Shown piece after piece: positions 1,548-3,010 of a DNA stretch of 64,000 nucleotides (position 1 is its first letter; each line of letters opens with the position of its first letter). The stretch is from Planctomycetales bacterium (GTDB taxonomy: Bacteria > 4484-113). The notes below the pieces were generated by a model. It was not told where the DNA came from. It searched no databases and saw only the letters and a list, made by a program, of their open reading frames with translations. The DNA lies in assembly GCA_030606285.1 (NCBI GenBank), contig JAUWGS010000002.1:125612-189611 (forward strand). The letters are read 5' to 3'. The translations under genes were made by a program, and so were the position numbers.

Positions 1548-1637
1548 ATGCTGAGTGCTGAAATAGCGGAGTTACTGGAGAAGGCTCAAGCATCCAACGA
1601 GACCATTGTCTTCACCAACGGGTGTTTTGAGCTGTAA
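1548..1637 (+). pseudogene. 29-codon relic of the hldC 5' end ([29 protein letters not shown]), displaced by an inserted cassette
   Basis: Peptide and nucleotide homology to the start of the intact hldC at 2555. 23-nt identical core gtcttcaccaacgggtgttttga at 1608-1630 and 2618-2640. Premature stop after FTNGCFEL. Confidence 0.5.
1608..1630 (+). repeat. left copy of 23-nt identical direct-repeat core flanking the 1-kb cassette (extended imperfect repeat ~1590-1635)
   Basis: Identical to 2618-2640. Flanks diverge at nucleotide level but encode similar peptides. Confidence 0.7.
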
Positions 1638-1767
1638 TCCGCAAGTTCCGCAGCGGCATGTGGCCGAAGGCCTAGGCGGAGGCGGAACCTATCTGAAGAA
1701 GCACTTGAGAATGGGACTTTCGGTGCCAGCGGGTCGAATCTGCATTTGACAAAGGAGGGATCGAAGA

Positions 1768-2535
1768 ATGGAGGGTGCGCAATTGAAAAGACTGGAAAGG
1801 CGCATAGCTTGTCTGGAACGGCAGAGGAATCTGCTGACAGTGCTATTTATGTTATGGGGCATAGGTGTTGGCCTATCGTTCCTGGTCTCCGCTACAACGC
1901 AGGGCGGCAGGCCACAAGCGGTCCAGGCACTGCGCTTTGACGTAGTGGACGAGGACCGAAATGTGTGTGGTGCACTCGGGCCACCCGCTGACGGAAGTCG
2001 AGGAGTAGCGCTGTTTGACGCCAACTATCATGAACGTGCCTTATTTTTTCTTGGTCGAAGTGGAAGCACCGCGCTAGTCTTGAAGGATGTGAATGGCTCT
2101 CCGCGTGTAGCGTTGGGGCTTTCTTGTGGCGGAAGTCCGGCCCTAAGACTCTACGATGAGGATGGAGCGATTCGCTCAAGGCTTGCTATTCGCCCAGACG
2201 GGATTGTGGACCTTGAATTGTCTGACGGAAGCGAGACGGGCTGCTTGTCCTTGGAGCTTTCTCAAGACGGGGTGCCTTGCATGACCATGCGCGGTTCCGA
2301 GGGACACGAGCGCCTAGCACTTGGGGTGCAGGCAAATGAGAGTGCGGGCCTATCGCTGTGGGAGCGCGAAGGCAGAGCTGGCATTCAACTCAACGTGAAT
2401 GCGGACGGTATGTCCCACATTGGCCTGCATGACCACGAAGGCGACCTTCGCGGGATGTTTGCGATGCTCTCAGAATGTATGCCCTGGATTCAGCTATGGG
2501 ACGATGACAAGAACTCGCTCTTCATGGCTCCTTGA
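1768..2535 (+). CDS. membrane-anchored tandem-repeat protein (N-terminal heptad/coiled-coil-like segment, TM helix, then ~20-aa repeats); paralog of 18671-19309
   Basis: GGAGG RBS 9 nt upstream. Coiled-coil-like LKRLERRIACLERQ, TM segment LLTVLFMLWGIGVGLSFLV, then repeats of the form L.LYD.DG..R..L....DG...L.L.D. Shares architecture with ORF 18671. Confidence 0.5.
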   Translation: MEGAQLKRLERRIACLERQRNLLTVLFMLWGIGVGLSFLVSATTQGGRPQAVQALRFDVVDEDRNVCGALGPPADGSRGVALFDANYHERALFFLGRSGSTALVLKDVNGSPRVALGLSCGGSPALRLYDEDGAIRSRLAIRPDGIVDLELSDGSETGCLSLELSQDGVPCMTMRGSEGHERLALGVQANESAGLSLWEREGRAGIQLNVNADGMSHIGLHDHEGDLRGMFAMLSECMPWIQLWDDDKNSLFMAP

Positions 2536-2542
2536 GCCGTGT

Positions 2543-2548
2543 ATAATC
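2543..2548 (+). promoter_or_regulatory. TATAAT -10-like hexamer 6 nt upstream of the hldC ATG (short-leader or leaderless promoter carried on the cassette side)
   Basis: Sequence gccgtgTATAATctgcctgATG. Confidence 0.3.
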
Positions 2549-2554
2549 TGCCTG

Positions 2555-3010
2555 ATGGGGATTTCACCTGAGCTGGAGCGGAAGCTCGCGGAACTGCGCG
2601 CATCCGGCAAGAGCATCGTCTTCACCAACGGGTGTTTTGACCTGTTGCATCCGGGGCACATCCATCAGCTTCGCGAGGCGAGGGCGCAGGGGGATTTCCT
2701 CATCGTGGGCCTGAACTCCGACTCCAGCACGCGGCGGCTGAAGGGCGAGGGCAGACCGATGCTGCCCCAGGACGCGCGCCAAGAACTGCTCGAAGCTATC
2801 CGCTACGTGGACGCCGTAGTCATCTTCGACGAGGACACACCGGAAGCTCTCATCCGCGAAGTGCGCCCCGACGTGCTGGTCAAAGGCGCGGGATATGAAA
2901 TCAAAGACATTGTCGGCGCGGAGTTAGTTAAGGGATACGGCGGCCGCGTGCACCGTGTGCCGATGCTGCCCGGATATTCCACAAGCGAGCTGCTATCAAA
3001 GCTCAAGTAG
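2555..3010 (+). CDS. hldC: D-glycero-beta-D-manno-heptose-1-phosphate adenylyltransferase (RfaE domain II, cytidylyltransferase fold)
   Basis: 151 aa starting [11 protein letters not shown]. HxGH nucleotidyltransferase motif [15 protein letters not shown]. The longer 2399 ORF start is an upstream artefact. Confidence 0.8.
   Translation: [151 protein letters not shown]
2618..2640 (+). repeat. right copy of the 23-nt direct-repeat core (inside the hldC 5' coding region)
   Basis: Identical to 1608-1630. Confidence 0.7.

What the first reader, a model, noticed from the sequence alone, without database searches (positions are those of the whole stretch)
1548..2650. hldA and hldC split by a 1-kb cassette bounded by a 23-nt identical direct repeat that duplicates the hldC 5' end
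The heptose-7-P kinase (577-1545) is followed 2 nt later by an ATG opening a 29-codon ORF ([29 protein letters not shown]). This is a decayed copy of the hldC N-terminus. The intact hldC ([35 protein letters not shown]...) starts 1 kb downstream at 2555. The two copies share a perfect 23-nt core (gtcttcaccaacgggtgttttga; 1608-1630 and 2618-2640). Their flanks encode similar peptides with diverged nucleotides. Between the repeats lie a tandem-repeat membrane protein gene with its own RBS (GGAGG) and a TATAAT box 6 nt before the new hldC ATG. This is the footprint of an element that integrated into the 5' end of hldC and supplied a replacement gene start, leaving the original start as a relic. 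No integrase is present in the cassette.
Basis: seen in the sequence. Interest (0 to 1): 0.75.

Follow-up and report, generated by a model that had tools for sequence, protein, structure and literature searches.

The report
Foreign gene insertion displaced hldC start
A 1-kb piece of foreign DNA carrying one membrane-protein gene and a substitute promoter-plus-start for the sugar-activating gene hldC sits inside the original start of hldC; relatives show the uninterrupted site, so it is a real old insertion, most likely made by ordinary recombination rather than by a new kind of mobile element.

Summary
hldA (577-1545) is followed 2 nt later by a 29-codon relic of the hldC 5' end (1548-1637). 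A 255-aa membrane repeat protein gene follows (1768-2535), then TATAAT (2542-2547), then intact hldC (2555-3010). The exact 23-nt repeat (1608-1630 / 2618-2640) lies inside a 46-nt, 87% direct repeat.

Five related contigs carry the empty site, with hldA's stop 1-2 nt before the hldC ATG. The closest one starts hldC with the same 14 nt as the relic. So the insertion, the relic and the replacement start are supported.

The mobile-element reading with a 23-nt att core is not supported:
- The same 23-mer is identical or 1 nt off in hldC of relatives without any insert.
- There is no integrase, terminal inverted repeat or attC.
- The cargo gene has no close relative in any collection searched.
- The replacement start is not cassette-specific. 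TATAAT 7-8 nt before the ATG, with no Shine-Dalgarno sequence, precedes hldC in four other lineages where quite different genes lie upstream of it (after hldA in the three where hldA is in view). One of these (L012) has its own, shorter relic.

Best reading: recombinational import of a stand-alone hldC allele plus cargo into an operonic hldA-hldC locus, by homology-facilitated illegitimate recombination. It is a known kind of event and of moderate interest.

The parts
577..1545 (+). hldA, D-glycero-beta-D-manno-heptose-7-phosphate kinase (PfkB family). It is the left, native flank.
   Evidence: Pfam PF00294 at 2.4e-40. TIGR02198 rfaE_dom_I at 3.5e-100. It is 90.4% nt identical to L003 hldA and groups with L003 in every 150-nt bin.
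1548..1637 (+). Relic of the original operonic ('A-type') hldC 5' end. It is a 29-codon ORF that starts 2 nt after the hldA stop. Homology to hldC ends at 1635, possibly 1641.
   Evidence: Its first 14 nt are identical to the L003 hldC start, and it is 78% identical over 87 nt. The peptide resembles A-type N-termini such as P0004, MLIADKAELLEKTRASGKT. It has replacements at otherwise conserved residues (G to N, K to E, FD to FE), a stop, and low GC of 0.48.
1590..1635 (+). Left copy of the 46-nt direct repeat (87% identical). The exact 23-nt core is at 1608-1630.
1636..1767 (+). Non-coding leader of the cargo gene, with a Shine-Dalgarno AGGAGG at 1753-1758. The left junction of the inserted DNA lies at its 5' edge.
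   Evidence: Read directly from the sequence. It has no match in any related locus. No terminator or sigma-70-type promoter was predicted.
1768..2535 (+). Cargo gene. It encodes a 255-aa protein with an N-terminal helix and membrane anchor (residues ~22-40) followed by ~20-aa beta-hairpin repeats. The family is uncharacterised.
   Evidence: No Pfam or NCBIfam hit. There are 2,884 remote homologues, none closer than ~40% identity. A paralogue in the window at 18671-19309 is 34% identical. The AF2 model shows helix 2-42 plus ~17 strands at low confidence, pLDDT 49. GC3 is 0.566 against 0.72-0.76 for neighbouring genes.
2542..2547 (+). TATAAT -10 box, 7 nt upstream of the hldC ATG with no Shine-Dalgarno sequence between them. 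It is inferred to be the promoter of a leaderless hldC mRNA.
   Evidence: This is the only TATAAT-N5-9-ATG in 64 kb. The same arrangement is conserved before hldC in L005-8, L012/13 (TATAATCT-N5-ATG) and L014-16 (TATAAT-N8-ATG), although the surrounding upstream DNA cannot be aligned.
2555..3010 (+). Functional hldC (heptose-1-phosphate adenylyltransferase). Codons 1-21 (2555-2617) are the imported stand-alone ('S-type') start, one codon longer than the A-type.
   Evidence: TIGR02199 at 1.3e-56, above cut-off. The first 75 nt are 59.7% identical to L003 but 74.7% identical to the S-type L009. The N-terminus has the same length and pattern as S-type homologues P0005, P0006, P0011 and P0026.
2600..2645 (+). 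Right copy of the 46-nt direct repeat. The exact 23-nt core is at 2618-2640 and encodes the conserved VFTNGCFD stretch.
   Evidence: The same 23-mer is present in hldC of L005, L010 and L011.
3017..3787 (+). comF-family gene, the right flank. It follows hldC in every relative examined.
   Evidence: Pfam PF18912 and PF00156; gene tables.

Best explanation
In the ancestor of this genome, hldA and hldC were adjacent and probably translationally coupled (stop, 1-2 nt, ATG), as they still are in the closest relatives. DNA from a relative with the alternative stand-alone hldC arrangement then recombined into the locus. In that arrangement other genes lie upstream, and a TATAAT box 7 nt before the ATG gives a leaderless transcript.

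On the right, the incoming DNA paired with the highly conserved body of hldC, at or downstream of the VFTNGCFD core. On the left, its non-homologous end was joined illegitimately. This is homology-facilitated illegitimate recombination. hldA had to stay intact, and hldC begins 2 nt after it. The left joint could therefore only fall inside the resident hldC 5' end, which became the 29-codon relic.

The result has three effects:
- The cargo gene has its own SD but no promoter was detected, so it probably rides on the heptose operon transcript.
- hldC is now uncoupled from hldA and expressed from its own -10 box.
- The relic is decaying.

Shown: the insertion, the relic, the empty sites, the foreign-type start, the shared promoter design, and a second independent relic in L012. 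Inferred: the recombination mechanism, leaderless transcription, and co-transcription of the cargo.
For: 1. Empty sites with a 1-2 nt hldA-hldC spacer occur in L003 (hldA 90% nt identical), L010/L011, L004 and the P0007 contigs.
2. The relic starts with the same 14 nt as L003 hldC and has an A-type peptide.
3. The new start is one codon longer and only ~60% identical to L003 over its first 75 nt. It resembles S-type starts such as L009 at 74.7%. An in-situ duplication is therefore excluded on the time scale of the window-L003 split.
4. TATAAT-N7/8-ATG is shared by S-type hldC in window, L005, L012 and L014, which have unrelated upstream genes. It is unique within the 64-kb window.
5. L012 has an independent relic (MLSDELRRILDGLRE, matching the clade-II A-type L004) cut at a different codon with different cargo. 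This shows recurrent events with variable left joints and a fixed, selected right part.
6. No recombinase, TIR, attC or RNA element is present.
7. Cargo GC3 is 0.566 against 0.72-0.76 for neighbours.
8. hldC plus the comF 5' end shows unusually low synonymous divergence between otherwise distant lineages (dS ~0.5 against 0.8-1.1). The window+L003 sister signal is lost there (41:35:29 against 204:47:71 on the left). Both fit frequent inter-lineage recombination at this locus.
9. HFIR and relic-leaving displacement of gene ends are documented (PMC3240628; PMC5361080 and the references to de Vries & Wackernagel 2002 and Prudhomme et al. 2002 cited there).
Against: - The donor arrangement has not been found, so microhomology at the left joint cannot be shown.
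- The right crossover cannot be placed. dS between window and L003 in the hldC body (0.36) equals that of the flanks (0.34-0.42). The crossover may lie right at the core, which a Campbell-type model also predicts.
- The relic's 23-nt core is cleaner than its flanks (0 against 4 of 18 and 1 of 5 differences). The significance is only p ~0.07-0.15. It could reflect a crossover in the core or gene conversion.
- Natural competence and HFIR are untested in this uncultured lineage.
- The leaderless promoter is inferred from conservation only. The consensus scan found no full -35/-10 promoter.
Confidence: 0.55

Rival explanations
1. Campbell-type integration of a circular DNA by a single homologous (RecA-type) crossover in the conserved hldC core. 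The circle would carry cargo plus TATAAT plus a truncated S-type hldC 5' end. The 23-nt repeats would be the crossover products, and could also mediate precise excision.
For: The structure has exactly the B-left / core / P-right ... P-left / core / B-right layout. The core is the longest identical stretch between the alleles. dS suggests the hldC body downstream of the core is native. The relic core is cleaner than its flanks.
Against: It needs a circular intermediate carrying an hldC fragment truncated at codon ~30, for which there is no evidence. The L012 relic ends at codon ~15, upstream of the core, and has no long shared repeat. Twenty-three nt is at the lower limit for efficient homologous recombination (own knowledge of the minimal efficient processing segment). 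No other copy of such a circle or cassette was found.
Confidence: 0.17
2. Site-specific integration of a mobile element (prophage, ICE or IME remnant) with attB in the hldC 5' end and an attP that mimics and replaces the gene start. The integrase and most of the element were later deleted, leaving 1 kb.
For: Direct repeats flank the insert, and the target gene is restored by inserted sequence. This pattern is known from phage 21/e14 at icd and from many elements at tRNA genes (own knowledge). The cargo has atypical GC3.
Against: - There is no integrase in or beside the insert.
- The 'core' is equally conserved in insert-free orthologues.
- The replacement start and promoter are also present in lineages with other upstream genes, and in the distant L014, so they belong to hldC and not to an element.
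- The second relic, in L012, has a different boundary.
- There is no phage, viral or plasmid relative beyond weak plasmid-borne hypothetical proteins.
Confidence: 0.1
3. In-situ tandem duplication of the hldC 5' end, followed by divergence and later insertion of the cargo between the copies.
For: There are two homologous copies of the same gene end in direct orientation.
Against: Upstream of the 46-nt repeat the two copies are only about 40% identical by my own count from the alignment. Yet the relic still shares its first 14 nt with L003. The functional copy has an extra codon and a promoter shared with other lineages. The sister genome L003 has a single copy.
Confidence: 0.03
4. Assembly artefact or a chimera of co-occurring strains.
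For: The source is evidently a metagenome-derived sequence. A-type and S-type strains could co-occur in one sample.
Against: A Logan contig is 100% identical over 9 kb across both junctions. The sequence right after the relic core is not hldC, so a graph jump through the shared core cannot create it. The relic carries unique decay substitutions seen in no functional copy. L012/L013 show an analogous relic in other samples.
Confidence: 0.02

Closest known systems
Homology-facilitated illegitimate recombination (HFIR) in transformable bacteria (de Vries & Wackernagel 2002; Prudhomme et al. 2002; Meier & Wackernagel 2003; reviewed in PMC3240628)
   Same: Foreign DNA enters using homology on one side only. 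The other end is joined illegitimately close to the anchor. No dedicated recombinase is needed. The outcome is an insertion-deletion at a conserved gene.
   Different: Here it is inferred from comparative genomics in an uncultured lineage. The donor and the junction microhomology are unknown. The anchor gene's own start is duplicated and left as a relic.
Displacement of gene ends at Rhs/CdiA toxin loci and T6SS effector-immunity arrays, which leaves 'orphan' fragments (PMC5361080 and references therein)
   Same: A conserved part of a gene acts as the recombination anchor. Incoming DNA brings a new gene end plus cargo. The old end is retained next to it with a short repeat of the conserved sequence. 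Different strains carry different cargo at the same site.
   Different: Those systems displace 3' ends of polymorphic toxins and are driven by diversifying selection. Here the 5' end of a housekeeping LPS-precursor gene is displaced. The incoming end carries a promoter, and the protein product is essentially unchanged.
Integrative elements that restore their target gene (phage 21 and e14 at icd; tRNA-gene integrating islands). Cited from own knowledge.
   Same: Inserted DNA supplies a substitute end of the interrupted gene, leaving a diverged duplicate of that end at the other junction.
   Different: Those have an integrase and a defined att core and usually replace 3' ends. None of these features was found here.
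HldE / HldA-HldC organisation of ADP-heptose synthesis (fused in E. coli, separate genes elsewhere). Cited from own knowledge; the NCBIfam names are.
   Same: The same two enzymatic modules, kinase and adenylyltransferase.
   Different: In this clade the two genes occur in two states, coupled (1-2 nt spacer) or separated by variable genes. hldC has its own leaderless-type promoter in the separated state.

Membership tests
Site-specific integrative element (prophage/ICE/IME remnant) | Tyrosine or serine recombinase encoded in or next to the element | tested here: not met
   The insert has a single ORF with no Pfam or NCBIfam hit. The neighbours are GT9, hldA, hldC and comF.
Site-specific integrative element (prophage/ICE/IME remnant) | Identical att core at both junctions that is specific to the element-target pair | tested here: inconclusive
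   A 23-nt exact repeat is present. The same 23-mer is conserved in insert-free orthologues L010 and L011 and differs by 1 nt in L003. A clean run of this length has p = 0.07-0.15.
Site-specific integrative element (prophage/ICE/IME remnant) | The same element is found at the same site in other genomes, or elsewhere, or on phage or plasmid DNA | tested here: not met
   No close relative of the cargo was found among 5.8 billion proteins, JGI metagenomes, IMG/VR, phages or plasmids. Only remote family members turned up.
Site-specific integrative element (prophage/ICE/IME remnant) | The inserted DNA restores the interrupted target gene | tested here: met
   hldC at 2555-3010 is intact and scores above the TIGR02199 cut-off. 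The relic remains at 1548-1637.
Integron gene cassette | An attC imperfect inverted repeat at the cassette's 3' end and an IntI/attI platform | tested here: not met
   Only 19 nt separate the cargo stop from the hldC ATG. No significant inverted repeats were found, no Rfam hit and no integrase.
IS / transposon / MITE insertion | Terminal inverted repeats, a short exact target-site duplication, and a transposase or multiple copies | tested here: not met
   No TIRs were found. The repeat is 46 nt at 87%, and its upstream continuation is a different allele. No other copy exists in the window.
HFIR-type recombinational insertion / gene-end displacement | Insert-free state in close relatives, with the inserted segment abutting a conserved gene that can serve as the homologous anchor | tested here: met
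   Empty sites are found in L003, L004, L010, L011 and the P0007 contigs. hldC is 88% nt conserved across the clade.
HFIR-type recombinational insertion / gene-end displacement | The displaced resident end is retained as a relic of host-lineage type, and the new end is of a different (donor) type | tested here: met
   The relic is A-type like L003. The new start is S-type like L009, L005 and L012. L012 shows the same pattern with a clade-II relic.
HFIR-type recombinational insertion / gene-end displacement | Microhomology of a few nt at the illegitimate joint, seen by comparing donor, recipient and product | not testable with these tools
   No donor sequence for 1636-2554 was found in any collection searched.
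HFIR-type recombinational insertion / gene-end displacement | A donor-derived tract extending into the anchor up to a homologous crossover | tested here: inconclusive
   The sister signal with L003 is lost over 2618-3217 (41:35:29, against 204:47:71 on the left and 107:32:40 further right). However, window-L003 dS in hldC (0.36) equals that of the flanks.
Leaderless mRNA promoter | A -10 hexamer ~7 nt upstream of the start codon, no SD, and the TSS at the A of ATG | tested here: inconclusive
   The sequence part is met and conserved in four lineages. The TSS cannot be tested without RNA data.

The most novel reading that the evidence does not exclude
The hldC 5' end acts as a homology-targeted, integrase-free docking site. 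Cargo genes would travel attached to a portable 'TATAAT + leaderless start + hldC N-terminal codons' module. That module recombines into the invariant [8 protein letters not shown]-coding core of any related hldC. It can loop out again through the resulting direct repeats as a circle able to re-integrate. This would be a minimal, self-restoring gene-cassette system acting repeatedly in this lineage (window, L012, L005-type loci).
Probability: 0.08. Interest if true: 0.7.

Novelty: new member of a known kind. Interest (0 to 1): 0.3.

Why it matters
This is a clean natural example, with empty sites and a second independent case, of foreign DNA entering a housekeeping operon without destroying it. 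The incoming DNA brings its own promoter and gene start, and the old start is left as a datable pseudogene fragment.

It also shows that the hldA|hldC junction in these planctomycete-like bacteria is a recurrent insertion and recombination hotspot with two alternative expression designs for hldC: coupled to hldA, or stand-alone and leaderless. This is useful for annotation, because the 29-codon ORF is a relic and not a gene. It is also useful for understanding operon break-up. It does not reveal a new class of mobile element or mechanism.

Tried and rejected
1. Close relatives of the cargo protein. The word-indexed search of 5.8 billion proteins found nothing. The JGI metagenome scan found nothing, IMG/VR nothing and phages nothing. 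Plasmids gave only ~30% identical hypothetical proteins.

2. Metagenome scan with a pattern for TATAAT-N7-ATG-N39-YTGCGNGC...GGCAAG.

3. Whether the 1636-1767 leader is a remnant of the 832-aa gene found at the same site in L005. Only 8-nt chance-level matches were found, so this was rejected.

4. Whether the whole hldC plus the comF 5' end was imported. Triplet site counts suggested so. dS then showed window-L003 is not more diverged there, so I do not claim it.

5. Structure of the cargo protein. The single-sequence AF2 model had pLDDT 49, too poor for a fold search, so none was run.

6. Homology of the 832-aa cargo of L005 with the 840-aa gene at the same place in clade II (P0013 contig). 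The search returned only one 75% relative and no DNA for the JGI contigs, so this is unresolved.

7. Promoter and terminator consensus scan and Rfam over the region. Nothing was found except tRNA-Asp.
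Full report
**1. Observation**

- hldA occupies 577-1545. It matches PfkB and TIGR02198 rfaE_dom_I at 3.5e-100.
- Two nt after its TAG stop, an ATG at 1548 opens a 29-codon ORF, [29 protein letters not shown].
- A 255-aa ORF with AGGAGG 9 nt upstream lies at 1768-2535.
- TATAAT lies at 2542-2547.
- hldC lies at 2555-3010 and scores above the TIGR02199 rfaE_dom_II cut-off.

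The 23-mer GTCTTCACCAACGGGTGTTTTGA occurs only at 1608-1630 and 2618-2640, with 0 expected by chance. It sits inside a 46-nt direct repeat of 87% identity, 1010 nt apart. Upstream of that repeat the two copies encode similar peptides but cannot be aligned well at the DNA level. The box-to-ATG distance is 7 nt, not 6. A Logan contig from SRR14876847 is 100% identical over 9 kb.

**2. Empty sites**

A scan of one genome per species with hldA found two relatives. L003 (MAG AUK046, hldA 95% aa and 90.4% nt identical) has TAG-AG-ATGCTGAGTGCTGA... running straight into an intact 150-aa hldC. Those 14 nt are identical to the start of the relic. L004 (Planctomycetales MAG), L010/L011 (GCA_029932365.1) and the contigs carrying P0007 have the same adjacency with a 1-2 nt spacer. 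The relic is therefore the original hldC start, and the window carries an insertion.

The relic has substitutions at positions conserved in most or all of the 35 homologues read. In RASGK, G became N and K became E. In the invariant CFD, D became E. It also has a stop codon and low GC. This is the decay expected of a pseudogene fragment.

Window and L003 differ by dS ~0.35-0.4 in the flanking genes. Relic-to-L003 identity of 78% is about what a neutral fragment would reach over much of that time. The event is therefore old, not recent.

**3. The replacement start is not cassette-specific**

hldC homologues fall into two N-terminal types:
- A-type starts ML(S/I)... It is found wherever hldC abuts hldA.
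- S-type is one residue longer (M-x-[ILV]-x-[PS]-x-L...). The window's [20 protein letters not shown] is S-type.

Context look-ups show S-type hldC preceded by quite different DNA:
- L005-L008: hldA, then an 832-aa gene on the other strand, then hldC, with no relic.
- A JGI contig with P0013: hldA, then an 840-aa gene on the minus strand, then hldC.
- L012/L013: hldA, a relic, radical-SAM, a 318-aa gene and HAD genes on the minus strand, then hldC.
- L014-L016: small ORFs, then hldC.

In all S-type loci with DNA available, hldC is preceded by TATAAT. This is TATAATCT-N5-ATG in window, L005 and L012, and TATAAT-N8-ATG in L014. The rest of the upstream DNA is unrelated between loci, and there is no SD. 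In the window this motif occurs once in 64 kb. A -10 box 7-8 nt before the start codon is the geometry of a leaderless mRNA (general knowledge; PMC5397173 discusses Pribnow-box signals of leaderless genes). The promoter plus start is therefore an alternative, older hldC 5' allele, not a structure evolved on a 1-kb element.

**4. A second, independent relic**

In L012 the hldA stop is followed by (A)GTG TTA TCC GAC GAA CTT AGA CGC ATC CTT GAC GGC TTG CGC GAA, encoding MLSDELRRILDGLRE. This matches the A-type start of its own clade (L004: MLSPELTIVLDGLRAEGKR). It breaks off at about codon 15, upstream of the 23-nt core, and has no long repeat with the functional copy. The same kind of event has thus happened at least twice, with different left joints and different cargo.

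**5. The 23-nt core**

The identical 23-mer is present in hldC of L005, L010 and L011, with one mismatch in L003 and L009. It encodes VFTNGCFD, next to the HxGH nucleotide-binding motif. Its identity between the relic and hldC is largely what clade-wide conservation predicts. Given 5-6 differences in the 46-nt repeat, a clean run of 23 nt or more has p = 0.15-0.07. It may still mark the crossover or reflect gene conversion, but it is not evidence for an att site.

**6. Mobile-element hallmarks**

None was found:
- No recombinase or transposase.
- No terminal inverted repeats or attC-like structure.
- No Rfam family other than tRNA-Asp at 3882-3957.
- No terminator or full sigma-70 promoter.
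- No other copy of the cargo DNA in the window.
- No close relative of the cargo in protein, metagenome, viral, phage or plasmid collections.

The cargo protein belongs to a large unannotated family. There are 2,884 remote hits with a best E-value of 7e-26, no Pfam hit in ten members tested, and a paralogue at 18671-19309. It has an N-terminal helix with a membrane anchor and ~20-aa beta-hairpin repeats (low-confidence model). Its GC3 of 0.566 is well below its neighbours at 0.72-0.76, so it is compositionally foreign.

**7. How far the imported tract extends**

Counts of sites supporting each pairing among window, L003 and L010 give, in order (window+L003) : (window+L010) : (L003+L010):
- 204:47:71 left of the insert.
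- 41:35:29 over 2618-3217.
- 107:32:40 from 3218 on.

The comF 5' end groups with the S-type L009 at 28:8:11. This looked like import of the whole hldC. However, dS between window and L003 in the hldC body (0.36) equals that of the flanks. What differs is that distant lineages are unusually close here, with dS ~0.5 against 0.8-1.1. I conclude that the hldC-comF 5' segment undergoes frequent inter-lineage recombination, or is constrained at synonymous sites. The right crossover of this particular event cannot be placed.

**8. Mechanism**

The most economical account is recombinational import of an S-type allele with its upstream cargo into an A-type locus. Homologous pairing occurred in hldC on the right and an illegitimate joint formed on the left. 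This is HFIR, documented in Acinetobacter, S. pneumoniae, P. stutzeri and E. coli (PMC3240628; references in PMC5361080).

hldA must stay intact and hldC starts 2 nt after it. Any viable left joint therefore falls inside the hldC 5' end and leaves a relic. This explains why both independent cases have one, with different lengths.

The closest described analogues are the orphan-leaving displacements at Rhs/CdiA and T6SS effector-immunity loci (PMC5361080), mirrored here to a 5' end.

The alternatives are:
- Campbell-type homologous integration of a circle through the core (confidence 0.17).
- A decayed integrase-driven element (0.10).
- In-situ duplication (0.03).
- An assembly artefact (0.02).

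**9. Verdict**

This is a genuine, old insertion with a relic and an imported gene start. It is most likely a product of ordinary recombination at a recurrent hotspot rather than a novel mobile cassette. It is a new example of a known kind of event. Interest is moderate to low (0.3). A small chance (~8%) remains that it reflects a homology-targeted, integrase-free cassette system.

Noticed in passing
window 3882-6700; L003 8200-8563; L010 6284-9091; gene table of the P0007 contigs: The stretch between tRNA-Asp and moeA also varies among close relatives. The window and L010 have ccsA and resB there. The P0007 contigs have a 703-aa PKD/CAP-domain protein. L003 has nothing. This is a second indel hotspot, next to a tRNA gene and 1 kb from the hldC insertion.
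   Followed up: partly
window 18671-19309 (+), and the neighbouring ORF at 19344-20345: This is a paralogue of the cargo protein (34% identical). It has very regular 20-aa repeats (DASGKxRAxLxTxADGSPxLxL, about 8 copies) and no hydrophobic anchor. The next ORF, of 333 aa, has low GC3 (0.587), so this may be another acquired patch.
   Followed up: partly
window 2618-3250 against L003, L005, L009, L010: hldC and the first ~80 codons of comF have much lower synonymous divergence between distant lineages (dS ~0.5) than the flanking genes (0.8-1.2). Tree signal there is star-like. This suggests recurrent inter-lineage recombination or selection on synonymous sites.
   Followed up: partly
L012 4982-6776 (minus strand): A 509-aa large serine recombinase (Resolvase/Recombinase/Zn_ribbon_recom) and an HTH gene lie immediately downstream of comF in the L012 lineage. 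In the window that position holds tRNA-Asp.
   Followed up: no
L005 559-3063 (minus strand); JGI 3300042731 contig; JGI 3300075153 contigs: A gene of ~820-840 aa with no Pfam domain sits between hldA and hldC, 10 nt from the hldA stop and convergent with it, in several metagenomes. Whether the clade-I and clade-II versions are homologous could not be checked because no DNA was available.
   Followed up: partly
window 1768-2535 and the proteins: The cargo belongs to a family with at least 2,884 cluster representatives at E of 1e-3 or better. None of those tested has a Pfam or NCBIfam annotation. Remote members lie on Ca. Manganitrophus and Isosphaeraceae plasmids.
   Followed up: partly
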